A stretch of 64,000 nt of DNA, taken from the NCBI GenBank assembly GCA_000004985.1, contig GG738845.1; one strand, 5' to 3'. This DNA is from Naegleria gruberi (taxonomy: Eukaryota). The notes under the pieces are model-generated. The model was not told the DNA's origin and did no database searches. It worked only from the letters and a program-made list of their open reading frames with translations. Of the stretch, positions 24,296-50,011 are shown piece by piece. Positions within the stretch are counted from its first letter, which is position 1. Each line of letters begins with the position of its first letter. A program made the position numbers and the translations under genes.

Positions 24296-24412
24296 CTCAA
24301 TTTAAGACAAAGTAAATTGTAATTTAAATTTTATTTACAATAGCTTCACATAATTTTTCATATTCAGAGCTGGTAGTTAAGGTTATTAGAATAATAACAA
24401 ATAATGCTCTAC

Positions 24413-30802: not shown

Positions 30803-32296
30803 ATGGATACAACAGTACAACAAGATGTTGCTTCCATAATAGCAGCTTCAAATTGTAGTGGTGTTGGAGGTAATGTACAACAAGTAGGATCATCCTCAAA
30901 CAAACCCAAGACCAGAAGAGGAAGACCACCAAAGGCACAACAGAAAACAGCTTCCGTTGTATCCTCAAGTCACCTACACAATGTTTTAGAATTTAAACAA
31001 ACATATTCAAGATTGCTCCGAAAACAACAAGAAATTATGGAACAAAAAAGACCAAAATCTCTATTGGATACCAGTTTAATGTCGATCAATGATTTAATGA
31101 ATGACCTCAGTGATGACGAAGAAGATATTAGCAGTGGAACAAATCAACAACCTGTTGCAGGTAGTGAAAATTTTAATAATTTAATGGAAGAGGATGAATT
31201 GGAAGATATGATGTCAACAACAGCCACACGAACAAATAATAATAATTTATTGATAATACCTCCAGAAAAACAATCACTTAGGGATTTGCTTCAATTCAAA
31301 GATTTAGCTATCAAAAAACCAGAGCAAATAATAGAGGAAGCAATACGAAAAGAATTAAAACGAACCAGAGGAATGGAGGATGAAATAGATATGGATGTAC
31401 CAAATGATGTAAGAAAAGTAATTGATTTTTCTAGAATACCCAAATTTACAACAATTCTGGAAGAGATGGGAGAAAGTACCGAAGGAACTAGCCAACAATG
31501 TGTCTATAGTATTACAGAAGAAGCTAAAGTAGAGAATGGGTATTTTTTACCAAAGAGGAACGAAAACTTTATTGCACCTACAGAAGAAGCTAATTATTTT
31601 GGAAAATACCACAAAGAGAAGAATGAAAAAGTACCATTGGATGAAGTAGTTCTACAAGTGGCCATTTATCACCCTATTAGAAATACTAAAGTTCAAGAGT
31701 TTATGGTTCTGGGAAGCCAAAAACTTACAGAACTAAGGGATTGTATAGATTGTATATCTAATACTGTTTTTGGAGATGTCAATAATTATTTCACATCATC
31801 AGCCTATTTATTTATTGAGAATATATTTTACAATGATAGAAGAATTGCAAATAATATTGATTACAGTGAAAATATTATTGAGTGGATGAAAACTTTTGAA
31901 GATGGCTCCACATCAAAAGCACATGTATTTTCCTCATTGAAAATGGAGGATGTTTCTTTTTATGATTTATCAATAAGGTTAAACGAGCCTTATATTTATT
32001 GTCATCATGGAAACTGTATGCATTATATTGTTTTTACAGAGATGAGAATATTTAACGAGAAGAAAGATGTTAATAACCTATATGCCTACCCTGTCAGATG
32101 TTTCCAGGCAAAGCCAAAGAGAAGGAAATGTGGTGTATGTGAAATTTATCAAGCCAAATGGGTAACATTTAGAGACAAGTTCACATCAGATGATCCCTCA
32201 TTCTTTTGTGATTCATGTTACAGACAATTTCACTATGACCATGATGGTACACTATTATATAATGATTTTAATGTATTTAAATATTATTGCGAGTAA
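30803..32296 (+). CDS. snRNA-activating protein complex subunit 3 (SNAPC3/SNAP50)-like
   Basis: The first ATG in the 30608 ORF frame is at 30803 ('MDTTVQQDV...'). The N-terminus has an AT-hook ('KTRRGRPPK'). The C-terminal zinc-finger region 'RKCGVCEIYQAKWVTFRDKFTSDDPSFFCDSCYRQFHYDHDG' matches the SNAP50 signature (human 'C.VC..Y.A.WVT.ND.F..EDP.FFCDVCFRMLHYD'). Confidence 0.65.
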   Translation: MDTTVQQDVASIIAASNCSGVGGNVQQVGSSSNKPKTRRGRPPKAQQKTASVVSSSHLHNVLEFKQTYSRLLRKQQEIMEQKRPKSLLDTSLMSINDLMNDLSDDEEDISSGTNQQPVAGSENFNNLMEEDELEDMMSTTATRTNNNNLLIIPPEKQSLRDLLQFKDLAIKKPEQIIEEAIRKELKRTRGMEDEIDMDVPNDVRKVIDFSRIPKFTTILEEMGESTEGTSQQCVYSITEEAKVENGYFLPKRNENFIAPTEEANYFGKYHKEKNEKVPLDEVVLQVAIYHPIRNTKVQEFMVLGSQKLTELRDCIDCISNTVFGDVNNYFTSSAYLFIENIFYNDRRIANNIDYSENIIEWMKTFEDGSTSKAHVFSSLKMEDVSFYDLSIRLNEPYIYCHHGNCMHYIVFTEMRIFNEKKDVNNLYAYPVRCFQAKPKRRKCGVCEIYQAKWVTFRDKFTSDDPSFFCDSCYRQFHYDHDGTLLYNDFNVFKYYCE

Positions 32297-32325
32297 AATT
32301 TATTAAATAATTTCTTAATTAAAAA

Positions 32326-33621
32326 ATGAAGCAACAAGATGAAACAAACATCACACCACCACGAGAAACTAGAGAAATCACTACTCGGATAGAACAATTA
32401 TCTAATCAAATATTGAAAGAGAAAAAAATATGTAATTTTGAAGACTTGAAAAAACAATATCAGTCCCTTCCTAGACTTTCTAAAAAACAGTTTGAACAAT
32501 TACCAAAAGAACAACGACAAGAATATATTAAAGTGTTGGAAACCATTACTAGCAAACTTTCTGCTAACATTTTATCTATTAATCAAGACATTGAATTTTT
32601 ATTAAAGGAGAGTCAACATTCAAATCAAGATTTATCATTTATCACATTACAAGCCATGCAAATTGCGATTGATAAGAGAAAATTGATTGAAAGGGAAAGA
32701 TTTGATAAAATTAGATCAGAATTGGAGCTGAAAAAACCTTTGGATGTGCTTTTTAAACGAATTAATTTCAAATTGAAATGCTATAAAATGGAGAAAGATT
32801 TTTTATTAATGGAGATGGAAAAGAAACATTTCAAAGAAAATCAAATGAAAAAATTTGAAGTAATTCCTTTCATATCGAATAATTTTTCTACTTATGTGTG
32901 GATTAAAATGATTGTTTTTTTGAAATATTATGACGATGATTGGTTAGACCTTTGTGATACTCGAATTTTATTAGAAAATGGGAATTACTTGAGTGAGGCA
33001 AATTGCGTTTTCATAAATTACAAACTCGAGGAATGTCTACTATTCTTAATATGCAATGGAAATGAAAAGGAATATGGAAATATTAAAAGAAGCGAATATG
33101 GAATAGATATGGAAATGGAAGGTTTGAGAAAAAAAACAGCAGAACAAGAAAATAGAATCTCTCTATTTAATAAGAATTTACAAGATAATTGGAGCAGTTT
33201 AACTGACTTGGAAAAAATTAAATTATACTTAAGAGAGAACGCTAGACAAGATTATGCTGAAATTTTAAAGAAAGCCAAAATTCTGGGATTGGAAGATGAG
33301 GAAATAATTGAGCTATTCATTGAAAAAGGGTACGAGCTTTTTTTACCCTCATTCAAGCCTGAAACATTCAGATCAAATATTCCTTTTGCTACTCTGGATC
33401 CCATTCTTGAAAATGGATTCCACAATCAAAGTTTGAAATTAGCAAAGAAATGGAACGTTCCAGAGGTAATTATTACTGAGCTGTACAAAAATAAGGCAGA
33501 CATGGAAAAGAGTATTGTGCATTTATTAGATATATCACACTTTAAGGTTATGTTCTATTCTGAATTGAATATTGAAAGAAGCATGGGATCAACAATTCTA
33601 ACCCCACTACCAAAATTGTAA
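32326..33621 (+). CDS. Hypothetical protein (431 aa), K/E-rich, no recognised domain
   Basis: Long ORF with ATG at 32326. The composition is coding-like. Its stop lies 3 nt from the stop of the convergent downstream gene. Confidence 0.45.
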   Translation: MKQQDETNITPPRETREITTRIEQLSNQILKEKKICNFEDLKKQYQSLPRLSKKQFEQLPKEQRQEYIKVLETITSKLSANILSINQDIEFLLKESQHSNQDLSFITLQAMQIAIDKRKLIERERFDKIRSELELKKPLDVLFKRINFKLKCYKMEKDFLLMEMEKKHFKENQMKKFEVIPFISNNFSTYVWIKMIVFLKYYDDDWLDLCDTRILLENGNYLSEANCVFINYKLEECLLFLICNGNEKEYGNIKRSEYGIDMEMEGLRKKTAEQENRISLFNKNLQDNWSSLTDLEKIKLYLRENARQDYAEILKKAKILGLEDEEIIELFIEKGYELFLPSFKPETFRSNIPFATLDPILENGFHNQSLKLAKKWNVPEVIITELYKNKADMEKSIVHLLDISHFKVMFYSELNIERSMGSTILTPLPKL

Positions 33622-33624
33622 AGT

Positions 33625-34551
33625 CTAAATAGTCATAGAAATGGAGCATTTTGAACAATTCAAACCAGAGAGTGTCTTACTCAACTCTTGAGTCTTTTCA
33701 GCAGTTTTTTCGAACTTTACCTCCAAAGCGCTTGCCATTCCATCCTCCTCTGCCAGTCTCTCTCGTATTACCAACAATTTGGATTTTTCCTCCAAGAAGG
33801 ATGAGACCACATTTTGTGATACTTGATCTGAAAAGTTTGCTTCTACCAACAAGGAATAGTCAATATTCATATCTTGCTCAGTGCGAGCAGCCACTTTTTC
33901 TGCACATTGTCTTAACTCTCCTGATAGCAGATCTAATTCCATCTTTTTTTGCTCAATCAGGTCAGCCTTGGAAGAAAGCACAACATCAAAGTCTGCCTCT
34001 TCTTTTTCCATGCAAGAGATAGAGCTGGATAACCTTTCTAATTCCTCAATTGGTTCAAATTTCTTTTTCAATTCTTCCCTTCTTTTCAATTCTGTGAACT
34101 TCTTCTTTAAAGTTTCTACTTGCTTGATGACATTTCCCAAAGAATTCTCCTTGATCTTTGCTGCAAACCTAATATTGATTTCATAAATTTTTGTTGCCAC
34201 TTCTCCTCTAATACCCTCTACTTCTCCTTTTCTTTGCTCTAGTTGATTTTGCATATGTCTGAGTCTCTTTTCCGAGTTATCTACAAATACAGAATTACTT
34301 ACCAGCTTTGATTCCTTCAATAAGAGTTTGACATCATTATTTTGTTGTCTTGTTCCATCCAAATTTACATCAAATTGGAAGATTGATTCACACAAGGCTT
34401 GATTCCTTTTCTCCAATTCGTCCATCTCTATCAATACTCTCTCTTTAGCTCTTGAGGATTCATGATGATTACATCTTTCTTGTTCTATCTTTTCCTCTTC
34501 TCTTTTATTTAGGCTTTCCAGCTCTTGTATTTGTTGTATGATATGTTCCAT
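33625..34551 (-). CDS. Coiled-coil protein (308 aa), unknown function
   Basis: ORF with ATG at 34551. It has heptad-rich E/K/L content ('IEQERCNHHESSRAKERVLIEMDELEKRNQAL'). Confidence 0.45.
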   Translation of the reverse strand: MEHIIQQIQELESLNKREEEKIEQERCNHHESSRAKERVLIEMDELEKRNQALCESIFQFDVNLDGTRQQNNDVKLLLKESKLVSNSVFVDNSEKRLRHMQNQLEQRKGEVEGIRGEVATKIYEINIRFAAKIKENSLGNVIKQVETLKKKFTELKRREELKKKFEPIEELERLSSSISCMEKEEADFDVVLSSKADLIEQKKMELDLLSGELRQCAEKVAARTEQDMNIDYSLLVEANFSDQVSQNVVSSFLEEKSKLLVIRERLAEEDGMASALEVKFEKTAEKTQELSKTLSGLNCSKCSISMTI

Positions 34552-38671: not shown

Positions 38672-39477
38672 ATGCCAAAACCTAAAAGCTCAACTGCCCT
38701 TACTCAACTTAACGTTCTTGATGAAGTTAAGGAAGAGAAGGCCATCGATCGGATTTTAAAAATTATTGATAATGCACCTAGTTTAGGATACATAAACAAA
38801 ACGCAATTCTATACAATGGTTCACTTTTTGGAAAAGGAAGCTTCTGTAAAGGATAAGCAGCTAAAACTAAAAGTGGAGGAAACAAAAGCATGCAGAGAAA
38901 TAATACAAAAATTAAAGAACAATTTAAAACAAAATGAAACTGACATTAAAATGATTAATAATAACAGATCGAGGATTCAAATTGCGATAGAAATGTTAAA
39001 AGTAAAAACAGAAGAAATACGGAGGGAAAGCGACGTTGTCATGGAATCAATTCTTGATTATCGTAGAGTAAGTGTTTGAATATCAAACAGTATGACAAAA
39101 GCAAATATTAGAATATTTTGGATTTGGAAAACTATTCAAAACAACAAGCAGAATTTATCAAGGAAACTCAAAAAGAGACTAAAAATTATATTAAAACCAA
39201 TCAAGAACTTGATCAAATTAAGAATACAGCACTAAAGGAACGATTCATCAAGGCAGTAAGTTGAATTATTTTCTCTAACCTAATTGTTTCAAAGAATGAA
39301 AAGGAAAAGTCCCTCAACAGATTTCTAAGACATATCACAATAGTGAGAAAGAACCTAACGCATGACCCTTATCAATTCTTTGGCTCCGATCAATCGGAAA
39401 GAGATGACATTGTTTTTGGTAATAATTTTGGAGCTAATGCAAAGGAAAAATTCAAGAGAAGGAATTCTGTCTATTGA
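38672..39477 (+). CDS. Small coiled-coil protein (about 241 aa), three exons, unknown function
   Basis: Exons are 38672..39067, 39112..39255 and 39295..39477, with 44-nt and 39-nt GT-AG introns (both gtaagt). The spliced product continues in frame: '...ESILDYRR|NILDLENYSKQQAEFIKE...RFIKA|NEKEKSLNRF...KRRNSVY*'. Confidence 0.45.
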
Positions 39478-39974: not shown

Positions 39975-42900
39975 ATGATGTCCCAAGAAGATCTTGCTCG
40001 TTTTGAAACACTTTGTCAATCTATTTACGGACAAAAGGAGGAAGCAAGAAAGGATGCTGAAAGACAACTTTTCATGTTCCAAAAATTAGAAAGCTATCCT
40101 AAGTTGGTGCTAATCTTTGATAAGAGCAAAGACCCACATGCTTTATTCTTTGCATCCCAACAAATAACCAAGCTATTGACAAGTCATTGGAATAGTTTTT
40201 CTAATGATAAAAAGACAGATCTTCGTAAGTTAACATTTTATTCTAAAATTATTAACTGGTTTAAAGGAAATTATCTTTTGAATTATTTAGCTAGTTGTGG
40301 GTTTGAACTTCCAAAGTTTGTATCTTCTGATTTATTTAAACTTGTTGGTAGATTGACCAAATTAGGATGGTTGGAAGACCAACAGAATCGTGATCTACCA
40401 GAATTAATTAAGAAGTACTTTATTACTGTTGCAAACCCTCAACTTTCTGTTGTTGGTATTAGGATTCTCGGAAATATTATTGAAGAAATGAATACACTCA
40501 CTACAAGAAAAAGCTTGACACAACATCGTAAAATTGCTGTTTCATTCAGAGATTTAGCTTTGAGAGGAATTTTTGAAACTGCCATTTTTACTTTGAAAGA
40601 CGTTTTAAGAGCTCTTGGAGGTGGAGGTTTAAATATTGGGGTTATGAATAATAATAAGGCAGCAAACGAAGCACTTTGTCAAGAGGCTTTAGAACTTTCA
40701 TTAAGTTGTTTAAAGTTTGATTTTGTTGGTATATTCCCTGATGAATCTTCAGAAGACATAGGCACTATTCAAATACCTGCTGCTTGGAGACCTCTGTTCG
40801 AAGAATCTGACACCTTAGAATTATTTTGGAATTTATATACTACATTAACAAATGCCAAGTTAAGGAAGGACGTTCTGCAAATTCTTGTTTTATTGTGCAG
40901 TGTAAGGCGATCACTCTTTACAGGAGATGATGAACGAAAACAATTTTTATCCAAGTTTTTTGAGGGAATGTGTACTATCTTACAATCACGATATGGTCTT
41001 GACGATCAAGATACCTACCATGAGTTTTGTAGACTTTTAGCGCGTATCAAGTCAAATTTCCAACTTAATGAATTTGTTGCATGCAAAGGTTATGTACAGT
41101 GGCTAGATTTATGTGCCAATTTTTCAATTGAAAGTTTCACCTCTCTTGAGTGGTCGAATCAATCAGTTTATTATATTTTAAATTTATGGTCAAGACTTGT
41201 TGCTTCAAAGCCTTACTTAAAGTCTGAAAATGAAAGTTATCTAGAAAAATACGTACCAGAAATATGTAAAAAGTATACAATTTCCAGATTAGAATATGCT
41301 AGACTTTGTGCACATGATGAATGTGATGACAACCCATTAGACCACAAAGAAAATTTAGATGAGCAATTAGATGCTATACCCCAACTTGTTCATTTTGATT
41401 ACAAAACAGCTGGACAACATTTAACCGATCTTTTCGACCCTGTTTTGCAGTTATACTTGGAATCTGTTAACAATAAGGTACATATGAAAAATTTGAACGA
41501 ACTAGAACAAAAATTGACATGGCTCACTTACATAGTTGGTTCTGTTATTGGTAAAAGATATGTTAGCTCGCTATCTGTTGATGAAGCTGAACTATTGGAC
41601 GGCACATTATCTGCCAGAATTTTGAGATTAATTCCTTTAATAGATATTAGAATTAAGAATTATTCATTTTCTAACCATCTTAAAGATGAATCATTACAAC
41701 ATCTGGAATATGCTTTGTTATATTTTATGAAAAATTTTAAGAAATCATACCTTGGTGATTCATCAACCTCTGTTGGTAATGGTAACAATCCAAAGATTTT
41801 TGTACGACTAGCCGAACTTTTAAATATTGGTGAACAACTTCAGGTATTGAATATTTTTATTGGAAAGATAGCAAGTAATTTGAAAGTATGGGCTAAAGTT
41901 GATAATATAGTTACTGAAACTATGGGACTCTTTGATGAAATAGCTTCAGGCTACAATAGTGCTAAACTGGCATCAAAGCTTGAAACAACTCAATATCTTT
42001 TGTTGAATCATGGTCCTGAAAATTTCCCATTTTTGAATGAAATTACAAATCTTAGACAAAGAACAGCTTTTTACAAGACGCTATGTAAACTCCTTTTTTT
42101 ACAAAATTATACAGAAGATGATTTTACATCATTTATCAAACCATTGGAATCAGTTAGTGACAGATTAAACTCTATAGATAATCCAGAAATTTTCAAACAG
42201 GAAGGTGTTAAAAACGCTCTAATAGGATGGTGTCGTGACCTTCGAGGAATAGTATTTGGTTGTAATAATAAGAGAACTTATACATTCTTTTTTGAATGGT
42301 TTTTTGACAAGTACAGTGGAATTTTGGAAAAGGCTGCTCAAGTCTGGTATGCTGATCAATTTGTTATGAATTCATTGTTGAAATTTTTAGCAGATTTTGT
42401 ATTGAACAAGAATCAAAGAATTGCTTTTAGTTATAGCTCACCTCATGGTATTTTAATATTCAAAAAGACAAGCTCTATTTTGACAAACTATGGTCAAAGA
42501 CTCCATAACGTGCCAATCAAAAAGGAAGCGTACGCTGAAAAATATAAGGGTATTTGCACTAGTATGAATATTTTATCCAGATGTTTGGCTGGTAAATATT
42601 GTAACTTTGGCGTTTTTGATTTGTACAAAGATCCTGCCCTCAATGAAGTTTTGAATACTGTTATTCGTCTTGCACTTAGTATTCCATACTCGGATATAAT
42701 GGCATATCCAAAATTATGCAGAGCATACTATGGATTGATGGAAACCCTTTTCCAAGAACATACCCATACAATTATTAGATTTGAAACATCCATTTTCTTA
42801 CAAATATTGAGCTCTCTTGAAGAAGGTGTTTCCATTGAAGAATTGAGCTTATCTTCTCAAGTTTGTGCTGCTTTGGATAACCTTTTTACTTTTTATTATA

Positions 42901-43265
42901 CTCAAGCTAAGAAAAATACTCCAGATGCTCAAGTTTTAGCAAATCACTTAAAACAGAACGATAATTTGATTCCAAATATGTTAACTCAATTCTTTAGAAT
43001 AATTATTTTGGAAGAATGTGGCAATCAGTGGAGTCTATCAAGGACCATGTTGGTATTGATAGTACTTAACCCTTCATTCTATGAAAATTTGAAACAAGTA
43101 ATTATCAATTCTGTTGCTGGAGATGATGTTGAACGAGCATCCAAAGTGAGGGAGGCTTTCGATAAGCTAATGGATGGTGTTGAAATTAATTTAGAACCAA
43201 AGAATCGTGACAAATTTACTGGGAATCTAATAACGTTCAGACAAGATGTACGAAATGTAATTTAA
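39975..43265 (+). CDS. XPO7: Exportin-7 (RanBP16)
   Basis: Single 1096-aa ORF. It is collinear with human XPO7 over its whole length. Examples: 'TQHRKIAVSFRDLAL' vs human 'TKHRKIASSFRDSSL'; 'CLKFDFVGIFPDESSEDIGTIQIPAAWRPLFEESDTLELFWNLY' vs human '[44 protein letters not shown]'; 'YHEFCRLLARIKSNFQL' is identical; C-terminal 'KNRDKFTGNLITFRQDV' vs human 'KNRDRFTQNLSAFRREV'. Confidence 0.92.
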   Translation: MMSQEDLARFETLCQSIYGQKEEARKDAERQLFMFQKLESYPKLVLIFDKSKDPHALFFASQQITKLLTSHWNSFSNDKKTDLRKLTFYSKIINWFKGNYLLNYLASCGFELPKFVSSDLFKLVGRLTKLGWLEDQQNRDLPELIKKYFITVANPQLSVVGIRILGNIIEEMNTLTTRKSLTQHRKIAVSFRDLALRGIFETAIFTLKDVLRALGGGGLNIGVMNNNKAANEALCQEALELSLSCLKFDFVGIFPDESSEDIGTIQIPAAWRPLFEESDTLELFWNLYTTLTNAKLRKDVLQILVLLCSVRRSLFTGDDERKQFLSKFFEGMCTILQSRYGLDDQDTYHEFCRLLARIKSNFQLNEFVACKGYVQWLDLCANFSIESFTSLEWSNQSVYYILNLWSRLVASKPYLKSENESYLEKYVPEICKKYTISRLEYARLCAHDECDDNPLDHKENLDEQLDAIPQLVHFDYKTAGQHLTDLFDPVLQLYLESVNNKVHMKNLNELEQKLTWLTYIVGSVIGKRYVSSLSVDEAELLDGTLSARILRLIPLIDIRIKNYSFSNHLKDESLQHLEYALLYFMKNFKKSYLGDSSTSVGNGNNPKIFVRLAELLNIGEQLQVLNIFIGKIASNLKVWAKVDNIVTETMGLFDEIASGYNSAKLASKLETTQYLLLNHGPENFPFLNEITNLRQRTAFYKTLCKLLFLQNYTEDDFTSFIKPLESVSDRLNSIDNPEIFKQEGVKNALIGWCRDLRGIVFGCNNKRTYTFFFEWFFDKYSGILEKAAQVWYADQFVMNSLLKFLADFVLNKNQRIAFSYSSPHGILIFKKTSSILTNYGQRLHNVPIKKEAYAEKYKGICTSMNILSRCLAGKYCNFGVFDLYKDPALNEVLNTVIRLALSIPYSDIMAYPKLCRAYYGLMETLFQEHTHTIIRFETSIFLQILSSLEEGVSIEELSLSSQVCAALDNLFTFYYTQAKKNTPDAQVLANHLKQNDNLIPNMLTQFFRIIILEECGNQWSLSRTMLVLIVLNPSFYENLKQVIINSVAGDDVERASKVREAFDKLMDGVEINLEPKNRDKFTGNLITFRQDVRNVI

Positions 43266-43320
43266 ATTGGCTGTAATTAAAATTATTTAATTAAATTTCA
43301 AATTTTAAAAAGAATAAAAA

Positions 43321-44175
43321 ATGCACAAACAATACTCAACAGACAATCTGCATGGAATTATTGAGAATTTCAACAATAACACAGAAAAAATAATTTCTAA
43401 ATTCGGAATATTTGATTTATTGTGGAATAAAGTTAAGAATCAAATATCGGAGCCATCAGAATCGTTTGAACAATTTTATAATAATTCGTTTAACATTATG
43501 GATAATCATCCCGAGAAGAGTAGAAATATTGAAGATTTAAGAAGCGTATTCACTGAAAAAAACACCAACCCAATTGATTCTAATGATGGAGACTTTGATT
43601 TACTGAATAATTTAACCTCTCTGCTATCTCACTCATCTCTAAAAAGAGAAGAAATTATTAGAAAAGAATTACATTTGCTATTGGAAGAAAATAGTAAATT
43701 CATGAAAGAGTTGATGAAAATTTATTCTGTTTGTTCTATGACTTTATCCTTGGATGAATTTATAGAAAATGTTTTGGAAAAGCTTTATGACAACGGACTT
43801 GAAAGGGAGAAATTGAGATTAAAACAACTCAATAGACTACAAATCCAAAGTCTAAACAGACAAATTGACACTCCACGCCCAACCACTCTTGAAATATCTA
43901 ATAACTCTTCACAATCATTTTCTTATAATATGGAGAGAAAGTATGAGTTCTCTAAACAAGTGATGAAAGTTTTTGATTCTAATGAAAGAAAAATATTTAA
44001 TGATAACCCTATGGGTTTACATTATTTGGATCCTTCCATTGAGCCATATCATCCTTTGTCATTTAACAACATTATATTTAATAATGATAAAACTAAGAAG
44101 AAAGCAGATTCAAATCAATCAGAAATACCATTGATTCCAAAGAAGAGAAGAACCAATAGAAGAAGAAAATCCTAA
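43321..44175 (+). CDS. Hypothetical protein (284 aa) with a basic C-terminus
   Basis: ORF with ATG at 43321, only 55 bp after the XPO7 stop. No recognisable domain. The C-terminal 'KKRRTNRRRKS' looks NLS-like. Confidence 0.4.
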   Translation: MHKQYSTDNLHGIIENFNNNTEKIISKFGIFDLLWNKVKNQISEPSESFEQFYNNSFNIMDNHPEKSRNIEDLRSVFTEKNTNPIDSNDGDFDLLNNLTSLLSHSSLKREEIIRKELHLLLEENSKFMKELMKIYSVCSMTLSLDEFIENVLEKLYDNGLEREKLRLKQLNRLQIQSLNRQIDTPRPTTLEISNNSSQSFSYNMERKYEFSKQVMKVFDSNERKIFNDNPMGLHYLDPSIEPYHPLSFNNIIFNNDKTKKKADSNQSEIPLIPKKRRTNRRRKS

Positions 44176-44260
44176 TTTAAGAAGGTGCTTTTTTTGTTGC
44201 TGTCCAAGAGTAAGGTTTGATGGAGATAAGAGTTCCTTTTAAAAAATACCTCAACCAACA

Positions 44261-46150
44261 ATGATTAGCAATACCTCGACTGGTTTTCAACTTGATACTA
44301 GTACATTTAGTTTTGATGAGGATGAGGGACCATCATTGTTCCAAAATTGTGGAACACTATTGCGGGATAGACAGTTGTATGATCCTATTGGTTTACCTTC
44401 ATTTAATGTTAGCGGAATGGAAGAAAATGCTTCTTGTTTTAGGACCTATGGTTCTTCTTCAAACTCTCCCAATGCAAAAAAGAGGCCATTTTCCATGAAC
44501 TTATCCACCCCTTCTACTATGCCTTTATTGCCTGCCTTTTTTTATAAGAATAATTCTTCAGTACTTACTCTGGATTGCTCAAAGTTGTCATTGGAAAGAA
44601 ATGACAAGTTGAATACCAAATATTTATTGGAATGGCTGAATACATTTCCATGTTTTAGATCACATATTGAGATTGACACTAATTCTCTTCTCTTAAACGA
44701 TTTTTCATTGTGGAAAATGTTATGTGAGATAGACGAGAATCATTATTCCTCTCTTGGAAATTATATTAACATGGATACTTGTGGTAAAAATACCAAGCTT
44801 TTATCTATTACATTTTTGTACAGATCAATTCAGTATTTGATTCTTTTCTTCCAAATGAAATATGAAATGAGAATCGATTTAATAGATATTATCAAAAACC
44901 CTCTTGCAATACTAGAGGATAGTCAATCTCAAACAGATTTGAAAGAGCAATTCTTTCTCTTTTTAAAATATTTACTAGCAACAATATTTACTTCTCAAAA
45001 CTCTCAAAATCTAGTTCAAAGATTACTAATATTAGAACCTTTATCACAAAATACTTTAGCCTCCATAGTCAAAGAAATTATGGATCAACACTCAAAATCA
45101 TCAGCGTGTGTTTTCCATTCTGAGGAGGATTTACACTTCTTATTTGAAATGACAATTCATTTTCTAAATATGGGTTCATCACTTCAACAAAAAATATCCT
45201 ATCTGGATAAGCATGTTATTGAGGAGCAAAGAAATGATTCAAGAAAACTCTATTTGGAAAATGGCACTTTGAAAACAAAAAACCAAGAGTTAGCTACACA
45301 AATAGATGACATGGTAGTAATACATTGTTCAGAAAGATGTCAATTGTATGAACAAATTAACAAGCTGGAAATTGAGTTATCAGAACTTAACACACACAAA
45401 AAGAAGATTGAAAAACAAGAATTATTAATAGAGGAAAATGTAAATTTAAGAGAAAAACTTCTAATACTTGAAAATGTTTCACAATCATTGAGAGATGAAA
45501 ATATTCATCTACAACAAACAATTCATAACCATTGCAACACGAATGTGCTTCAAAATATGAATGACACTTTAAATTGTGACGAAGTCTCAAATCGAGTTAA
45601 TGAATACGTTGCTGAACGAGAGTTATTACTAGAAGAAATTCAACACTTAAATTTGGAAATTGGTTTAAGAAATAGGAAAATTGATTCATTACTAAATGAA
45701 AACTCAATCTTAAGACAAGGAAAGCAACTAGAACAAGCATCTTTGGAAAAATCAATGAATCTGTACGAAGATTTGAAGAATAGCGTAAGAGTACAAACTT
45801 TATCAAAACATCCTACAGAAATCCAGAAATCGCCATCATTCTCAATCCAAACTCAAACTCCAAATACAGTGTCAAATGATGTGAGTTGTGAAACTGAAAG
45901 ACAACAAACAATCTCAACAAGTACTCAGACAGATCTGTTCCCAAACAAACAAGTCGAACAAGAAAAACCAAAACTCTCCCTAACCCCCTCAAAAACCAAC
46001 ATATCTCCAAAAATATTTAGTCCAAAACAATCACCCAAACTCCTCAAACTTGAAAAGACTTCGGCCAGCAAATCAAGAAATAAGAAAGAAGGAGCCTCCA
46101 CAGAGAAGAGTCCATATCGATTTTTCTTGCAAGGACACGATTTTAAGTAA
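44261..46150 (+). CDS. Hook-domain coiled-coil protein (HOOK/CCDC88 dynein-adaptor family-like)
   Basis: 629-aa ORF with ATG at 44261. The N-terminal region 'YLLEWLNTFPCFRSHIEI...' matches the Hook/Girdin N-terminal domain signature 'L(I/V)xWLQTF'. It is followed by a long coiled coil ('NQELATQIDDMVVIH...KLEIELSELNTHKKKIEKQELLIEENVNLREKLLILEN'). Confidence 0.5.
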   Translation: MISNTSTGFQLDTSTFSFDEDEGPSLFQNCGTLLRDRQLYDPIGLPSFNVSGMEENASCFRTYGSSSNSPNAKKRPFSMNLSTPSTMPLLPAFFYKNNSSVLTLDCSKLSLERNDKLNTKYLLEWLNTFPCFRSHIEIDTNSLLLNDFSLWKMLCEIDENHYSSLGNYINMDTCGKNTKLLSITFLYRSIQYLILFFQMKYEMRIDLIDIIKNPLAILEDSQSQTDLKEQFFLFLKYLLATIFTSQNSQNLVQRLLILEPLSQNTLASIVKEIMDQHSKSSACVFHSEEDLHFLFEMTIHFLNMGSSLQQKISYLDKHVIEEQRNDSRKLYLENGTLKTKNQELATQIDDMVVIHCSERCQLYEQINKLEIELSELNTHKKKIEKQELLIEENVNLREKLLILENVSQSLRDENIHLQQTIHNHCNTNVLQNMNDTLNCDEVSNRVNEYVAERELLLEEIQHLNLEIGLRNRKIDSLLNENSILRQGKQLEQASLEKSMNLYEDLKNSVRVQTLSKHPTEIQKSPSFSIQTQTPNTVSNDVSCETERQQTISTSTQTDLFPNKQVEQEKPKLSLTPSKTNISPKIFSPKQSPKLLKLEKTSASKSRNKKEGASTEKSPYRFFLQGHDFK

Positions 46151-46157
46151 TAAAAAA

Positions 46158-47336
46158 ATGGGAAAATTGTTTGCAAAGAGGAAAAAAGAGGAAGTAATTT
46201 CATCGTCTTCTGAATCAACATCATCGGACAGTGATAGTAGTAAAATAGTATCAAAGGCATATCTAATCACAACCTCCGATGAGGAAGAGATATCAAAGTT
46301 GAAATCTTCTCCAAACCCAATCAACATTGAAATAGTTTTCGACTTGAGAAATTCAAAAAGGCTGATACGGTGTATTCAAGATATTGATGATCATAGGAAT
46401 TTGGGACAGGATCATTTTATTGAAATGCTAAAAGATAAATTAATTTTAATTATTTTGGGCCACGTGAAGGAACTAATGAGTAACGATTTTGATGAAGAAT
46501 TATTTGACAAGTTTTTTAGTTTTTTAAATAGACGGTTAATTTATAGATCCATGAATAGTGTATCTCAGTTTTATATTACCAAGAGTGACAAATCAACTGA
46601 TGATGTTGACCCAACCGATTTTCTATTTTTTGAGTGTTTGGAAGAGATTATAATAACCAAGAAATGGTCACGATATGGTTTGGAAGGTGTTATGAATGAA
46701 CCCATTCAATGTATTTTAATTAACAATAAGGGAGATCGTTCTTGTGAATTCGAATCAGCCTTCATAATAATTTATGCCAGGGAGCAACCACGTGGTGAAT
46801 TCAAATTCTTGATTTGTAAAGTTGAAAATGATGTTTGGAGTTTTCCTGGTGGTAAGAAAATGTTTCCTTCCGAATCTTTTGAAAACTGTATCACTAGAGA
46901 AGTGAGAGAAGAGCTGTACGGTTTTTCCATCAGCTCTATAGAATCTAGTATAGGACTGGGACCACTATTCTCTTTTGGGGGAAGCTCTGTTTTTGTGCAC
47001 GAAGTGGAATGGGGTAAAACTGGAGAAATTGTTAATAATTTAATTAAGAATTATCAGTCTCTTAAAAAGGAAAATCAATTATTTGATTTTGATACTGAAA
47101 AAACATCCAAATTTATCAAGGAGGATGAGGAATATTTGGATAATTTACTAGAAATCTCTAAAAAATTTAAGTTTGTAGAAGAAATTGTGGATTACCAGTT
47201 TATTTCAGCAGACGAAATAGAGAAAATGCAGGGTGGAAGATCTTTCTTTTTGAAACAACTACATAATTCATTTCAAAAAAATATTGTACGACGATCCATG
47301 CAAACAAGTAAAAGAAGTAAAAAATTTAAACAATAA
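46158..47336 (+). CDS. Nudix hydrolase domain protein
   Basis: The first ATG in frame is at 46158, 7 bp after the Hook-like stop. The Nudix box 'FPGGKKMFPSESFENCITREVREELYGF' fits GX5EX7REUXEEXGU. The N-terminus is S/D-rich. Confidence 0.55.
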   Translation: MGKLFAKRKKEEVISSSSESTSSDSDSSKIVSKAYLITTSDEEEISKLKSSPNPINIEIVFDLRNSKRLIRCIQDIDDHRNLGQDHFIEMLKDKLILIILGHVKELMSNDFDEELFDKFFSFLNRRLIYRSMNSVSQFYITKSDKSTDDVDPTDFLFFECLEEIIITKKWSRYGLEGVMNEPIQCILINNKGDRSCEFESAFIIIYAREQPRGEFKFLICKVENDVWSFPGGKKMFPSESFENCITREVREELYGFSISSIESSIGLGPLFSFGGSSVFVHEVEWGKTGEIVNNLIKNYQSLKKENQLFDFDTEKTSKFIKEDEEYLDNLLEISKKFKFVEEIVDYQFISADEIEKMQGGRSFFLKQLHNSFQKNIVRRSMQTSKRSKKFKQ

Positions 47337-47373
47337 ATATTCTAATTTAATTTCTATTTTGGGAAATAATGTG

Positions 47374-50011
47374 TTATTGTTGAGCAGCAACAATTTCCTT
47401 CATAACCTCTTTCTTGTAATCATAGAAATCGCCTGGATATTTGGAAATTGATTTACCAGTACAAACCCAAATTTCGTCACAAACAGAAGTGATTAAGTAT
47501 TCGTCGTGACTGACCATCAAAATACCTCCATTGTATTCGTTGAGGGCAGCAATCAGTGCATCTACTGTATCAATATCCAAGTGATTGCTAGGTTCGTCCA
47601 AAAGAAGCAAGTGAGGCTTTCTGAATGTGATTTCTGCAAAAACAACTCTTGACTTTTGACCACCAGATAAAGTATAAATTGGTTGGAGTGCCAAATCACC
47701 TGTAATACCCAATTTTGCAAGTTGGGCTCTTAATCCAGGTTCTTTTTCATTGGTAAAGATGCTTGCCATGTGTTCAAGAGGAGTCATTTGTGCATTCAAG
47801 TGTTCCATATGGTGCTGACTGAACTTGGCAATTCTGATCTTTCTATTAATATTGACATGACCTTCAAGTGTTTTTAATTCTTCTGCCAAAATATTCAAAA
47901 ATGTTGATTTACCTGTTCCGTTCTAATGAATGTTAAAAATAAATCGTAAATATTAAAGTACATACTGGACCAACAAGAGCAATACGGGAATCCATGTCAA
48001 GATTGAAGTTCAACTTTTTGAAAAGGATCTTTTCTCTTGAATACCCAAAAGTGACGTCTACAGCTTGGAGATATGGTGGATTCTCAGCATCAGGTGAATC
48101 GAATGTAAAGCTAAATGTTGGATCTTCAACAACTGCAGGAGTAAAATCCATTTTTTCCAAAACCTTAATACGGGATTGAGCCATTTTGGCTGTAGCTGCC
48201 TTATATCTGAATCTGTCGATAAACTTTTGAATGTGTTCTCTTTGCTTCTTTTGAGCATCGTGTGTTTTTTGTTGTTGTACCAATTGTTCCTTTCTGGTCT
48301 TTTCAAAAGTATCAAAATCACCCTTGTAATAGTGAAGCTTTTGATCTTTAGCAAGAATAATATCTGTAACTACAGCATTCAAGAATCTCTTGGCGTGAGA
48401 AACAACTACCAATGTCTTGTCATACTTCTTCAAATATTCTTCCAACCAAATGACAGCAAACAAGTCAAGATGGCTAATAATTGAAGATGAATGTTAGCAT
48501 TATTAAATACTTGTAATGAAAACTTACTTTGTAGGTTCGTCCAAAAGTAAAATATCAGGTTCAACAAACAAAGCTCTTGCCAAAGCAACTCTCATTCTCC
48601 AACCTCCAGACAAGGACTTGGTCTTCATGTGCATCATTTCAGGAGTGAATTGCAAACCCGAGAGGATAGCAGCAGCTCTTGCTTCTGCGCTGTGAGCATC
48701 AATTTCATCCAATCTTTCATAAATTTCTGATAATTTTTGACCTGAATCCTCTGATCCATCTTCTAATAATCTCTTTTCTTCCTTCAATAAAGATAATCTT
48801 TCTACATCTGTATTGAGAACAGTATCAATGGCAGAAATGTCATCACCAACAATTTCTTGTTCAATATGTAAAATTTGCAAATATGGAGGAATGCCCTTAA
48901 AGTCTCTCTCTGCAATATGTCTCAACAACGTAGTTTTACCAATACCGTTTCTACCAATCATACCATAACGACGACCATTCAAAAGTGTTACATCAGTACC
49001 AACCAAAAGAGTCTTACTTCCCACAGAAACCGTAACATCAGAGACACGAATTTCTCTTGGACCCTTAAAGTCATGAGCCGTATGGACCTTGATAACACCT
49101 CTTTGATTTGTCAAACCTCTCTTCTTTAAGAACTCTTCATACTCTTTTTGTTTTTGTTTGATGATGGCTTCTTCTTTTTCCTTCTTCTTTTTTTCTTTAT
49201 CCTTGATTGCTTTTTGTTTCCAATCCAAGTCATCATTCCAATTAGATTCGGAAAGTTGTTGATGTACTGAAGCCATACCAGTTTGAGAAATCATAGATTC
49301 TTGCTCGGCAACATCCTTTTCGAAACGTTTACCCAAGCTGATAGCTTCTTCCAATAAAACAACATGTTCCTCTTCCTTGATATCAGTTCTCAAAATACCT
49401 CTTTCCTTTAATGTTTGAATCATTACATTTACCACTGCCTTGGCGTCTTCAAGGTTATTGGATGTTTTGGTTTTAACAAGATAAGAAGATATTACATCTA
49501 CAACATCTGTTTCTTTTCTTCTTGTTACAACATCATTTTGAGATGATAAAATACTGGAAAAGTAGTTCAAAATAGGAGTATTCAAGTGTTTAGATGATGT
49601 TTCCTTTCCAATAACATCATTAGTAATAATTTCAATAATATCGGAACATTCTTTGTTGGCTTGGAAGTAAATTTTAGATGAACCAGTTGGAATTTCTTTA
49701 AAAACTGCAGATATGTTGGAGGTTGTTGAAGTTGTTGATAGTGTTGGTGAAGAAATGTCTTTTTCTGGTTGTTTTGTATTGGAGGTTGTTGCTGGGGCTT
49801 GAGTTGCAGGCTTTTGTGCTGAAGGTTTGTTTTTGTTAGTGTTATTACTTGGCTTCTTTTTTTGTTGTGCTTCCTTCTCTTTTTTTTGTTGTTCAGCTAA
49901 AGCCTTTTTTTCTGCAAGTTGTCTTTCAAGTTCTTCTTGTTTTTTCTTCTTTTCTGCCTGCATCATTTCCTCGAGGCTTACACCACGAGCAGCAGCTTTC
50001 TTTGGAGGCAT
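47374..50011 (-). CDS. ABC-F family ATPase (ABCF1/GCN20-like translation factor; two ABC cassettes, no transmembrane domain)
   Basis: Exons are 50011..48528, 48473..47966 and 47922..47374 on the minus strand, with introns of 54 nt (gtaagt...ttattag) and 43 nt (gtatgt...cattag). The spliced protein runs continuously: a K/E-rich N-terminus, 'GRRYGMIGRNGIGKTT', 'LSGGWRMRVALARALF..ILLLDEPTNHLDL' and the second cassette 'GPNGTGKSTFLN...LSGGQKSRVVFAEI...LLLLDEPSNHLD'. Confidence 0.9.

What the first reader, a model, noticed from the sequence alone, without database searches (positions are those of the whole stretch)
39975..47336. Head-to-tail array of four plus-strand genes with spacers of 55, 85 and 7 bp
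Exportin-7 has its stop at 43265. The 284-aa hypothetical protein starts 55 bp later at 43321 and has its stop at 44175. The Hook-like gene starts 85 bp later at 44261 and has its stop at 46150. The Nudix gene's first in-frame ATG is at 46158, only 7 bp further on. These gaps are far too short for independent promoter-plus-terminator units, particularly the 7-bp Hook-to-Nudix junction. Possible explanations are polycistronic or read-through transcription, promoters embedded in the upstream coding sequence, a mis-placed Nudix start (the next in-frame Met codons are well downstream), or an unrecognised intron that fuses Hook and Nudix into one product.
Basis: seen in the sequence. Interest (0 to 1): 0.5.

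Follow-up and report, generated by a model that had tools for sequence, protein, structure and literature searches.

The report
Tightly packed Naegleria genes, overlapping units
Four neighbouring genes of the amoeba Naegleria gruberi really are only 55, 85 and 7 bases apart, but this is the normal packing of this compact genome, in which separate genes with very short untranslated ends overlap slightly, and it is not an operon or a fused gene.

Summary
The ORFs lie at 39975-43265, 43321-44175, 44261-46150 and 46158-47336, giving spacers of 55, 85 and 7 nt. The window is Naegleria gruberi, and the genes are EFC50356-EFC50359.

The 7-nt junction is real at the coding level. The C-terminus of the 'Hook-like' protein, up to its stop, is conserved in the N. 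lovaniensis orthologue. The Nudix N-terminus, upstream of the publicly annotated Met, is conserved in a distant homologue. ATG 46158 also has the genome's typical AAA start context.

The spacing is ordinary here. About 80% of the window is ORF. Tandem gaps run from 7 to about 160 nt and convergent gaps from 1 to 158 nt. The array is not syntenic in N. lovaniensis, Willaertia or an environmental Naegleria.

Sense AATAAA is almost absent from coding sequence and concentrated at gene ends. It sits on the Hook stop, on the Nudix stop, and 8 nt before the hyp284 ATG. Published direct RNA sequencing of N. gruberi shows AAUAAA-directed cleavage, a median 39-nt 3' UTR and 'dual-use' stop codons.

Best reading: these are four separate transcription units with very short UTRs. 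Neighbouring promoters and 3' ends overlap, and the Nudix promoter lies inside the Hook coding sequence. A polycistron, a Hook-Nudix fusion and a misplaced Nudix start are all disfavoured. No transcript data could be examined. Interest is low.

The parts
39975..43265 (+). Exportin-7 gene (public model EFC50356.1 / XP_002683100.1). The coding sequence is interrupted by one real 42-nt intron.
   Evidence: Pfam TPR_XPO7 at 3.7e-69 plus IBN_N. 97% identical to the N. gruberi exportin-7 model, with orthologues at 85% in N. lovaniensis and 75% in Willaertia.
40225..40266 (+). 42-nt spliceosomal intron inside XPO7 (GTAAGT...ATTAAC...AG). It is in frame and free of stops, so it is invisible to ORF reading.
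   Evidence: The 14 residues it would encode are absent from all annotated and transcriptome-derived orthologues, which read KTDLR|NYL.
43266..43320 (+). 55-nt XPO7-to-hyp284 spacer. It carries TGTA (43272), ATTAAA (43276 and 43290), a TTTAAA motif (43304), and AATAAA (43313-43318) fused to the A-run before ATG 43321.
   Evidence: N. gruberi uses AAUAAA with an upstream UGUA element, and cleavage falls about 15-20 nt downstream (PMC11529991). Use of these sites at this locus is inferred.
43321..44175 (+). 284-aa protein of unknown function with a basic C-terminal tail. It is a real coding ORF, and its start is probable but unverified.
   Evidence: Codon-usage score is +76.8 in frame against -123 and -248 off frame. 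The first 177 nt score a weaker +8.4. The context is aaaaaATG directly after an in-frame stop. No Pfam family was found. The alternative start M60 at 43498 would widen the spacer to 232 nt.
44176..44260 (+). 85-nt hyp284-to-Hook spacer. It has a T-run (gcttttttt), an upstream ATG at about 44220, and TTTTAAAAAA at about 44238-44249. It has no AATAAA or ATTAAA.
   Evidence: The 38-nt ATG-free leader implies a 5' UTR of about 38 nt or less if upstream ATGs are avoided (inference).
44261..46150 (+). The public model NAEGRDRAFT_61259 covers only residues 304-629. Its stop codon is embedded in an AATAAA.
   Evidence: A full HMMER scan finds the 326-aa public model and a 714-aa N. lovaniensis orthologue that aligns end to end. 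The C-terminal YRFFLQGH matches YRVFIQEH, with 5 of 5000 shuffles scoring as high. There is no Pfam or PDB Hook match.
46149..46154 (+). AATAAA overlapping the Hook stop codon (TAATAAA), a 'dual-use' stop and poly(A) signal. Predicted cleavage is at about 46168-46175, which is 10-17 nt inside the Nudix coding sequence.
   Evidence: Position. PMC11529991 reports that 11-13% of N. gruberi stops overlap AAUAAA and that such mRNAs have a median 22-nt 3' UTR. The cleavage position here is inferred.
46151..46157 (+). 7-nt Hook-to-Nudix spacer (TAAAAAA). It is simultaneously part of the Hook poly(A) hexamer and the A-rich start context of Nudix.
   Evidence: In the window, positions -3 to -1 are A in 20, 17 and 18 of 23 genes.
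45882..46157 (+). The last 276 nt of the Hook coding sequence. This is the inferred location of the Nudix promoter and 5' UTR. It contains no ATG in any frame, has a weak coding signal, and carries a TTTTAA motif at 46141.
   Evidence: The ATG-free run is not significant once composition is controlled (P = 0.05-0.26), so it is only consistent with the inference and does not prove it.
46158..47336 (+). 392-aa Nudix-domain protein. The public model NAEGRDRAFT_61260 is 5'-truncated to 286 aa. Its stop codon also overlaps an AATAAA (47332-47337).
   Evidence: Pfam NUDIX scores 22.3 bits against a cutoff of 21.1. The homologue P0002 aligns from residue 19 onward, including SDEEEISKL and FDxRNSKR, which lie upstream of the annotated Met. 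P0002's best Pfam match is Nudt16-like at 23.4 bits, below its cutoff. AATAAA position.
47337..47373 (.). 37-nt convergent spacer between the Nudix stop and the stop of a minus-strand ABCF-type gene. It shows the same tight packing in an orientation where a polycistron cannot be the explanation.

Best explanation
These are four ordinary, independently transcribed protein-coding genes of the compact Naegleria gruberi nuclear genome. They are packed so tightly that adjacent transcription units overlap.

Each mRNA has very short untranslated regions. 3' ends are set by AAUAAA or AUUAAA hexamers placed on or just after the stop codon. Hook and Nudix have 'dual-use' stop/poly(A) signals. XPO7 has UGUA, two AUUAAA and one AAUAAA within its 55-nt spacer. 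Cleavage about 15-20 nt further on would place the Hook 3' end, and possibly the XPO7 3' end, inside the first few codons of the next gene.

Each downstream gene starts at an ATG in the genome-typical A-rich context, after a leader of at most a few tens of nucleotides. Its core promoter therefore lies in the upstream gene's 3' UTR or last codons. For Nudix it lies entirely within the 3' end of the Hook coding sequence.

What is shown: the coordinates, the real stop and start at the 7-nt junction, the genome-wide-like packing within the window, the lack of synteny, and the strong strand- and position-specific distribution of AATAAA. What is inferred: the actual transcription start sites, the cleavage sites, and the absence of functional read-through.
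For: 1. Organism and genes. The window is N. gruberi, and the genes are EFC50356, EFC50358 and EFC50359.

2. The junction is real.
- The Hook orthologue in N. lovaniensis is a stand-alone 714-aa protein that aligns to the very C-terminus. In the shuffle test, 5 of 5000 shuffles scored as high for the last 15 residues.
- Conserved Nudix N-terminal motifs lie upstream of M90 and M107.
- 46158 is the first ATG of the open frame. Its aaaaaaATG context matches the window consensus of A at -3 to -1 in 17-20 of 23 genes.

3. The packing is general.
- About 80% of the window is ORF, with tandem gaps of 7-161 nt and convergent gaps of 1-158 nt.
- Willaertia shows gaps of 17-96 nt and N. lovaniensis gaps of 124-253 nt.

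4. There is no conserved gene order. XPO7 is followed by prefoldin in N. lovaniensis and in a JGI Naegleria contig, and by a convergent Nudix in Willaertia. Hook is followed by a rhomboid gene. The Nudix homologue is preceded by an unrelated gene.

5. Poly(A) signals.
- Sense AATAAA occurs 3 times in 43.9 kb of window coding sequence against a Markov expectation of 67.5, while the antisense equivalent occurs 56 times.
- It occurs 14 times in 1.34 kb around stop codons.
- In the array it occurs only at 43313, 43426, 46149 and 47332.

6. Published nanopore direct RNA-seq of N. gruberi (PMC11529991). AAUAAA is the signal and lies about 15-20 nt before cleavage. The median 3' UTR is 39 nt. 11-13% of stops overlap AAUAAA, and those mRNAs have a median 22-nt UTR.

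7. A comparative study finds about 2 genes per same-strand run and no polycistron signature in Heterolobosea (bioRxiv 10.64898/2026.07.29.740908).
Against: - No transcript data for this locus could be examined, so transcription start sites and cleavage sites are predictions.
- hyp284 has no AATAAA or ATTAAA after its stop, so read-through into Hook is not excluded for that pair.
- No promoter motif could be established. TTTAAA-like motifs occur upstream of 10 of 23 genes and downstream of 3 of 23, which is only suggestive.
- The ATG-free 276 nt upstream of the Nudix ATG is not significant after composition control.
- If the Nudix mRNA starts upstream of 46149, it carries AAUAAA in its own 5' leader and must escape cleavage there. 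That is unexplained.
- The Nudix frame is open for 58 codons upstream of its ATG (P about 0.03 given composition). It shows weak similarity to the possible N-terminal extension of the L001 homologue, with 53 of 5000 shuffles scoring as high. This is also unexplained.
Confidence: 0.75

Rival explanations
1. Polycistronic or read-through expression. Two or more of the four genes are made from one primary transcript, and Nudix is translated from a Hook-Nudix bicistronic mRNA by reinitiation across the 7-nt gap. Alternatively hyp284 transcripts run through Hook to the AATAAA at 46149.
For: The spacers of 7-85 nt leave no room for separate, non-overlapping units. hyp284 lacks a canonical hexamer after its stop. 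Naegleria belongs to Discoba, the sister lineage of the polycistronic Euglenozoa.
Against: - Equally short gaps separate convergent genes, where a polycistron is impossible.
- Gene order is not conserved in any relative examined.
- Three of the four genes have AATAAA at their own 3' end, while the hexamer is purged from coding sequence.
- Heterolobosea show about 2 genes per same-strand run and no polycistron signature.
- The Rfam gathering-threshold scan of the window matched only a tRNA.
- From established knowledge rather than a test here: reinitiation after a 629-codon ORF, or leaky scanning past its many internal ATGs, is not expected in eukaryotes.
Confidence: 0.1
2. The Nudix start is misplaced. 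The protein begins at the publicly annotated Met (M107, 46476) or at M90 (46425), so the true Hook-Nudix gap is about 270-325 nt and contains an ordinary promoter.
For: The public model NAEGRDRAFT_61260 is 286 aa and starts at MSNDFDEE.
Against: - The homologue P0002 aligns from query residue 19. It shares SDEEEISKL and (I/V)FDxRNSKRxI upstream of M90.
- The codon-usage score for 46158-46475 is +23 in frame against -77 off frame.
- The start context at 46158 is aaaaaaATG, compared with gaaATG and ctaATG at the later Mets.
Confidence: 0.06
3. Hook and Nudix are one gene, joined by an unrecognised tiny intron or a frameshift that removes the Hook stop.
For: - The Nudix frame is open for 58 codons upstream of its ATG, overlapping the Hook tail.
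- Coding potential is ambiguous in 45900-46150.
- N. gruberi has very short introns, 42 and 54 nt in the two verified cases, and stop codons often sit inside GTAAGT donors.
- A formally in-frame GT..AG of 34 nt exists at 46147-46180.
Against: - The Hook orthologue in N. lovaniensis ends at the equivalent position with a conserved C-terminal motif and is followed by an unrelated gene.
- The Nudix homologue elsewhere is not preceded by a Hook-like gene.
- The 34-nt candidate has a GTAATA donor and no yTAAC branch motif, unlike every convincing intron in the window.
- The region 46140-46260 scores as coding in the Nudix frame.
- With 274 formal GT..AG combinations, in-frame candidates are expected by chance.
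Confidence: 0.03

Closest known systems
Ultrashort 3' UTRs and 'dual-use' stop codon / AAUAAA signals in Naegleria gruberi (Genome Res 2024, PMC11529991)
   Same: Same organism. The Hook stop (TAATAAA) and the Nudix stop (CAATAAA) overlap AATAAA exactly as described there. The strong depletion of sense AATAAA from coding sequence and its enrichment at gene ends are reproduced in this window.
   Different: That paper concerns 3' UTR length and signal recognition. In the passages I read, it does not discuss predicted cleavage falling inside the next gene's coding sequence, or the hexamer merging with the next gene's start context. No data for these four genes were accessible, because no supplements are held.
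Overlapping transcription in compacted eukaryotic genomes: microsporidia and nucleomorphs (Williams et al. 2005 PNAS, PMC1182411; Corradi et al. 2008; summarised in PMC3629993)
   Same: Same-strand neighbours are separated by tens of bases or fewer. Transcripts initiate within upstream genes or terminate within downstream genes. There are no operons in the functional sense.
   Different: Naegleria is a free-living amoeba with a 41-Mb genome (size from my own knowledge), not a reduced parasite or an endosymbiont remnant. Overlap here is inferred from sequence signals and was not observed. My literature search found no paper reporting overlapping transcripts in Naegleria.
Polycistronic transcription units with spliced-leader trans-splicing in Euglenozoa (kinetoplastids, euglenids, diplonemids)
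   Same: Head-to-tail arrays with short intergenic regions, in a related lineage (Discoba).
   Different: Euglenozoan directons are long, up to hundreds of genes. Heterolobosea average about 2 genes per same-strand run, with no heavy tail. The window alternates strands every 2 genes or so. Individual AATAAA signals sit at gene ends. No spliced leader is known in Heterolobosea (my own knowledge).
Giardia and Entamoeba-type minimal genes: AT-rich initiator promoters within about 50 bp and 5' UTRs of 0-20 nt (my own knowledge; the short UTRs of Giardia are mentioned in PMC11529991)
   Same: An A/T-rich stretch immediately upstream of the ATG, very short leaders implied by ATG-free zones of 38 nt or more, and tiny 3' UTRs.
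   Different: No Naegleria initiator element has been defined. The TTTAAA-like enrichment here is weak. Naegleria uses AAUAAA, not Giardia's WGURAA.

Membership tests
Eukaryotic operon / polycistronic transcription unit (Euglenozoa- or nematode-type) | A single primary transcript spans several genes | not testable with these tools
   No RNA data were available. Exact-protein look-ups in the assembly collections found nothing for the four ORFs.
Eukaryotic operon / polycistronic transcription unit (Euglenozoa- or nematode-type) | Long same-strand gene clusters in excess of random orientation | tested here: not met
   In the window, strand runs average about 2 genes, and the run of 5 that contains this array is within chance expectation (plus my own estimate). 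Heterolobosea average about 2 genes per same-strand run.
Eukaryotic operon / polycistronic transcription unit (Euglenozoa- or nematode-type) | Internal genes lack their own poly(A) and promoter signals, and units are resolved by spliced-leader trans-splicing | tested here: not met
   AATAAA lies at or after the stops of XPO7, Hook and Nudix. hyp284 is the exception. The Rfam scan matched only a tRNA.
Eukaryotic operon / polycistronic transcription unit (Euglenozoa- or nematode-type) | Gene order conserved among relatives (for functional operons) | tested here: not met
   None of the three junctions is conserved in N. lovaniensis, Willaertia, a JGI Naegleria contig, or the L001/L002 organism.
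Dual-use stop codon / poly(A) signal genes of N. gruberi (PMC11529991) | AAUAAA overlaps the stop codon (within 2 nt upstream to 5 nt downstream) | tested here: met
   For Hook, the stop is at 46148-46150 and AATAAA is at 46149-46154. For Nudix, the stop is at 47334-47336 and AATAAA is at 47332-47337.
Dual-use stop codon / poly(A) signal genes of N. gruberi (PMC11529991) | The mRNA 3' end lies about 22 nt after the stop | not testable with these tools
   This needs the direct RNA-seq reads, and the paper's supplements are not held.
Hook family of dynein adaptors (Pfam HOOK / HOOK_N) | Sequence match to the Hook N-terminal (CH-like) domain and coiled coil | tested here: not met
   Neither the N. 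gruberi protein nor its N. lovaniensis orthologue gives a HOOK hit in Pfam, even at E values up to 10. There is no Hook chain among the PDB sequence or profile hits. The 'WLxTF' resemblance is from memory only.
Hook family of dynein adaptors (Pfam HOOK / HOOK_N) | Hook-domain fold | tested here: inconclusive
   The AlphaFold2 model of residues 94-312, built from a 2-sequence alignment, has mean pLDDT 37.5. That is unusable, so no fold search was run.
Nudix hydrolase superfamily | Pfam NUDIX domain above the gathering score | tested here: met
   22.3 bits against a cutoff of 21.1, a borderline match covering residues 214-253 only.
Nudix hydrolase superfamily | Nudix box GX5EX7REUXEEXGU | tested here: inconclusive
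   The sequence GGKKMFPSESFENCITREVREELYGF keeps E-x7-RE and EE. It has one extra residue between G and E, and one extra before the final G. The same spacing is seen in P0002. Catalytic competence is unknown.
Exportin-7 / RanBP16 | TPR_XPO7 plus importin-beta N-terminal domain, with orthology across eukaryotes | tested here: met
   Pfam E-values of 3.7e-69 and 5.2e-06. 535 homologues at E <= 1e-30, named exportin-7 by their sources.

The most novel reading that the evidence does not exclude
In N. gruberi the tightest same-strand gene pairs may share a composite element, A(A/U)UAAA-A(n)-AUG. In this element the upstream gene's poly(A) hexamer is also the downstream gene's translation-start context. 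Upstream mRNAs would then routinely be cleaved within the first 5 or so codons of the next gene, and the downstream promoter would be coding sequence of the upstream gene. The three tightest tandem junctions in the window fit this: 7 nt (AATAAAAAAATG), 29 nt (ATTAAAAAATG) and 55 nt (AATAAAAAATG). A rarer and more radical version is that Nudix is translated from a Hook-Nudix bicistronic mRNA, which would make Naegleria a stepping stone toward euglenozoan polycistrony.
Probability: 0.3. Interest if true: 0.45.

Novelty: already known. Interest (0 to 1): 0.2.

Why it matters
The result is mainly useful for annotation and interpretation.

It shows that very small gene-to-gene distances in Naegleria should not be read as operons, fusions or mis-annotations.

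It corrects three public gene models. Hook is truncated by 303 residues at its 5' end. Nudix is truncated by 106 residues at its 5' end. One of the two 'introns' in the XPO7 model is probably spurious.

It warns that ORF-based reading both misses real in-frame mini-introns and mistakes GTAAGT donor sites for stop codons.

If the predicted sense-sense overlap is confirmed with the existing long-read RNA data, it would extend the overlapping-transcription phenomenon from reduced parasites to a free-living amoeba. It would also raise a modest mechanistic question: how does an AAUAAA a few bases from the cap of the downstream mRNA escape recognition?

Tried and rejected
- Exact-protein look-ups of all four ORFs in assembly and cluster collections found nothing, because the public models differ from the ORFs. 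A look-up of the public Nudix model also found nothing.
- The word-indexed homologue search with Hook found nothing. Only the full HMMER scan found two relatives.
- Hook-family tests: no Pfam hit and no PDB hit by sequence or profile. The AF2 model had pLDDT 37.5 and was unusable, so no fold search was run.
- Two metagenome scans, one with the Nudix alignment and one with the Hook alignment, found no relatives.
- No synteny was found in any of the six loci fetched.
- Codon-usage scoring could not decide between the Hook frame and the Nudix frame in 45984-46147 (+4.3 against +1.2).
- The 276-nt ATG-free stretch upstream of the Nudix ATG looked striking against the CDS background (P about 0.02). 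It was not significant after mono-nucleotide, dinucleotide or codon shuffling (P = 0.05-0.26).
- The upstream TTTAAA/TTTTAA motif (10 of 23 against 3 of 23) is too weak to call a promoter element.
- A DNA alignment of the Hook upstream regions of N. gruberi and N. lovaniensis showed no convincing conservation.
- Enumerating GT..AG pairs that would fuse Hook and Nudix gave 274 formal candidates, so the count itself is uninformative.
- A candidate 34-nt intron at 39068-39101 could not be validated.
- The true start of the L001 Nudix homologue (ATG 9641 or 10001) could not be resolved by codon usage.
- Literature searches found no paper on Naegleria overlapping or polycistronic transcripts, and none mentioning these locus tags. 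The Cell 2010 genome paper is not held.
- The bacterial promoter/terminator scanner was not used, because it is inappropriate for a eukaryote.

Full report
**Identity of the window.** The Nudix ORF is 100% identical to a 'predicted protein [Naegleria gruberi]' on a 1.56-Mb contig. The exportin ORF is 97% identical to N. gruberi exportin-7. The public accessions are EFC50356.1 (XPO7), EFC50358.1 / NAEGRDRAFT_61259 ('Hook') and EFC50359.1 / NAEGRDRAFT_61260 (Nudix). G+C content is about 33% throughout.

**Observation.** The ORF list and the raw sequence confirm every coordinate in the finding.
- XPO7 runs 39975-43265, hyp284 43321-44175, Hook 44261-46150 and Nudix 46158-47336 from its first ATG.
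- The spacers are 55, 85 and 7 nt.
- Pfam supports exportin-7 (TPR_XPO7, 3.7e-69) and a borderline NUDIX domain (22.3 bits against a cutoff of 21.1).
- Pfam finds nothing for the other two proteins.

**Are the stop and start at the 7-nt junction real?** A full HMMER scan of 1.84 billion representative proteins with the 629-aa ORF found two proteins. One is the public N. gruberi model: 326 aa, equal to ORF residues 304-629, with the same stop. The other is a 714-aa protein encoded as a single ORF in N. lovaniensis.
- The two orthologues align end to end, including the extreme C-terminus: YRFFLQGHDFK* against YRVFIQEHSYERFR*.
- For the last 15 residues, only 5 of 5000 composition-preserving shuffles scored as high.
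- So the Hook reading frame is coding right up to the stop at 46148-46150, and the public model is 5'-truncated.

For Nudix, the public model starts at Met107 (46476). The only detectable homologue is P0002 (36% identity, from an ENA/Logan environmental assembly). It aligns from residue 19 and shares SDEEEISKL and (I/V)FDxRNSKRxI, both upstream of the next in-frame Mets at residues 90 and 107.
- ATG 46158 is the first ATG of the open frame.
- The region 46158-46475 scores as coding: +23 in frame against -77 off frame.
- The context aaaaaaATG matches the window's strong consensus, with A at -3, -2 and -1 in 20, 17 and 18 of 23 genes.
- I conclude that the 7-nt distance between the two coding sequences is genuine.

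**Fusion by an intron.** N. gruberi has very short introns.
- The XPO7 'ORF' contains a real 42-nt intron at 40225-40266 (GTAAGT...ATTAAC...AG). It is in frame and free of stops, and its 14 codons are missing from all spliced orthologues.
- A 54-nt intron at 48474-48527 on the minus strand joins two ORFs across an ABC Walker B motif.
- Stop codons that end ORFs often lie inside GTAAGT donors.

I therefore enumerated GT..AG pairs that would join the Hook frame to the Nudix frame, and found 274 formal candidates. Only one keeps the conserved Hook C-terminus: 46147-46180, 34 nt long. It has a GTAATA donor and no yTAAC branch motif, unlike every convincing intron in the window.

In addition, the N. 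lovaniensis Hook orthologue stands alone and is followed, 252 nt later, by a rhomboid gene. The Nudix homologue in L001/L002 follows an unrelated gene. A fusion is therefore unlikely.

**Is the spacing unusual?** No.
- Taking first-ATG ORFs of at least 100 aa, about 80% of the window is ORF.
- Same-strand gaps include 7, 29, 55, 75, 79, 85, 120, 138, 151 and 161 nt.
- Convergent gaps include 1, 3, 13, 37, 117 and 158 nt.
- Divergent gaps are larger, at 87-592 nt.
- Some of these short gaps are introns of multi-exon genes, but those listed above lie between distinct genes as far as can be judged.
- Convergent genes 3-37 nt apart cannot be explained by polycistrony, so very short and overlapping 3' ends are a general property of this genome.
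- Relatives show the same packing: Willaertia has gaps of 17-96 nt and N. lovaniensis 124-253 nt around the loci fetched.
- Strand runs in the window average about two genes. That matches a comparative study reporting about 2 genes per same-strand run and no polycistron signature in Heterolobosea.

**Synteny.** XPO7 is followed by prefoldin in N. lovaniensis and in a JGI environmental Naegleria contig, and by a convergent, different Nudix gene 17 nt away in Willaertia. None of the three junctions of the array is conserved anywhere I could look. Each gene therefore functions in different neighbourhoods. That argues for compact, self-contained expression signals and against an operon.

**3'-end signals.** A direct RNA-sequencing study of N. 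gruberi reports the following (PMC11529991).
[quoted passage not shown] - UGUA acts as an upstream element and a U-rich sequence as a downstream element.
- 11-13% of stop codons overlap AAUAAA ('dual-use'), and those mRNAs have a median 22-nt 3' UTR.

The window reproduces the underlying sequence signature strongly.
- Sense-strand AATAAA occurs 3 times in 43.9 kb of coding sequence, against 67.5 expected from a first-order Markov model and 56 occurrences of its reverse complement.
- It occurs 14 times in 1.34 kb spanning -5 to +50 around stop codons.
- Within 39975-47400 it occurs only four times: 43313 (8 nt before the hyp284 ATG), 43426 (105 nt into hyp284), 46149 (overlapping the Hook stop, TAATAAA) and 47332 (overlapping the Nudix stop).
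- XPO7 additionally has TGTA at 43272 and ATTAAA at 43276 and 43290.
- hyp284 has no canonical hexamer after its stop. About half of the window's genes share this property.

Applying the published distances gives these predictions. The Hook mRNA should end at about 46168-46175, which is 10-17 nt inside the Nudix coding sequence. An XPO7 mRNA using the AATAAA at 43313 should end about 13-18 nt inside hyp284. These positions are inferences.

**5' ends.** Every gene in the window has at least 38 nt free of ATG upstream of its start codon (median about 70 nt). The median ATG-to-ATG spacing inside coding sequence is 26 nt. This is consistent with short leaders.
- For Hook, an upstream ATG 38 nt before the start limits an ATG-free leader to about 38 nt.
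- For Nudix, the ATG-free stretch is 276 nt, all within the Hook coding sequence. This is not significant once composition is controlled (P = 0.05-0.26).
- A TTTAAA/TTTTAA motif occurs within 60 nt upstream of 10 of 23 genes, including all three downstream genes of the array, against 3 of 23 downstream regions. This is suggestive only.
- Because only 7 nt separate Hook from Nudix, any Nudix promoter must lie in the Hook coding sequence. This follows from the geometry.

**Mechanism proposed.** The array is four monocistronic units with very short UTRs whose control regions overlap their neighbours. In the three tightest tandem junctions of the window (7, 29 and 55 nt), the upstream gene's poly(A) hexamer is fused to the A-run preceding the next ATG: AATAAAAAAATG, ATTAAAAAATG and AATAAAAAATG. 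The closest precedents are two.
- The N. gruberi dual-use stop codons (PMC11529991).
- The overlapping transcripts of microsporidia, where transcripts initiate in upstream genes or terminate in downstream genes (PMC3629993, citing Williams et al. 2005).

A bicistronic Hook-Nudix mRNA remains possible but would need an unusual translation mechanism. That statement rests on established knowledge of eukaryotic scanning, not on a test here.

**Unexplained.**
- The Nudix frame is open for 58 codons upstream of its ATG (P about 0.03 given composition). It shows weak similarity to a possible low-complexity N-terminal extension of the L001 homologue, with 53 of 5000 shuffles scoring as high. The start of that homologue is itself ambiguous.
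- If the Nudix mRNA begins upstream of 46149, it carries AAUAAA near its cap.
- All three coding-sequence-internal sense AATAAA in the window lie within 300 nt of an ATG.

**The 'Hook-like' label.** Neither the N. gruberi protein nor its N. lovaniensis orthologue matches Pfam HOOK models or any Hook chain in the PDB. A structure prediction was too poor to use, at pLDDT 37.5. The protein is best described as a Naegleria-lineage coiled-coil protein of unknown function.

**Verdict.** Interest is low. The useful by-products are the corrected gene models and a concrete, cheaply testable prediction of sense-sense transcript overlap.

Noticed in passing
window 40225-40266 (+): A real 42-nt spliceosomal intron in XPO7 (GTAAGTTAAC...ATTAACTGGTTTAAAG). 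It is in frame and contains no stop, so the 1096-aa 'ORF' over-reads the protein by 14 residues. All spliced orthologues lack these residues.
   Followed up: yes
window 40620-40670 (+): The public XPO7 model (1065 aa) removes a second, 51-nt segment (GGGLNIGVMNNNKAANE). The N. lovaniensis and Willaertia proteins keep the equivalent residues. This is probably a spurious intron in the public model.
   Followed up: partly
window 47374-50011 (-): Three ORFs (48524-50011, 47933-48463, 47374-47898) are exons of one ABCF-type ABC ATPase gene. The 54-nt intron 48474-48527 has its GTAAGT donor supplying the apparent stop codon, and the Walker B motif LLLDEPTNHLD is continuous across the splice. A second short intron ends near 47921, just before a Walker A motif.
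   Followed up: partly
window 24370-24416 (-): The apparent stop of ORF 24413-26662 lies in a GTAAGT donor of a 47-nt candidate intron with a CTTAAC branch site. Splicing would extend the protein by 14 residues. In general, GTAAGT donors create false ORF ends in this genome.
   Followed up: partly
window-wide; array positions 43313, 43426, 46149, 47332: Sense-strand AATAAA is almost absent from coding sequence: 3 in 43.9 kb against 67.5 expected and 56 antisense. It is about 150-fold denser around stop codons. The three internal copies all lie within 300 nt of a start codon.
   Followed up: yes
window 44261-45169 and 46158-46475: The public models NAEGRDRAFT_61259 (326 aa) and NAEGRDRAFT_61260 (286 aa) are 5'-truncated by 303 and 106 residues, relative to ORFs whose extra parts are conserved in N. 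lovaniensis and in P0002 respectively.
   Followed up: yes
window 45984-46157 (+), Nudix frame: The Nudix reading frame stays open for 58 codons upstream of its ATG, overlapping the Hook tail in another frame. It shows weak similarity (...EPPQRR against EPPRRR; 53 of 5000 shuffles scored as high) to the possible N-terminal extension of the L001 homologue. This may be chance in low-complexity sequence.
   Followed up: partly
L001 9585-10004 (and L002 equivalent): In the environmental relative, the Nudix homologue's frame is open upstream to an ATG at 9641 with an aaaaaaaaATG context, only 53 nt after the stop of an unrelated upstream gene (a DHC_N2 Pfam hit). The gene caller's start at 10001 may therefore be too far downstream.
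   Followed up: partly
window 28214-28294 (-): A tRNA-Ser (anticodon AGA) lies 54 nt downstream of the stop of the minus-strand gene 28349-30715. It was the only Rfam match in the window.
   Followed up: no
window 32296-32326 (+) and 33621-33625: There are other extreme junctions. One is a 29-nt tandem gap with ATTAAA fused to the next start (ATTAAAAAATG). The other is a 3-nt gap between convergent stop codons.
   Followed up: partly
L004 13274-13292: In Willaertia magna, XPO7 is followed 17 nt later by the stop of a convergent 253-aa NUDIX-domain gene. Its relationship to the N. gruberi Nudix gene was not examined, although tblastx showed no strong similarity.
   Followed up: no
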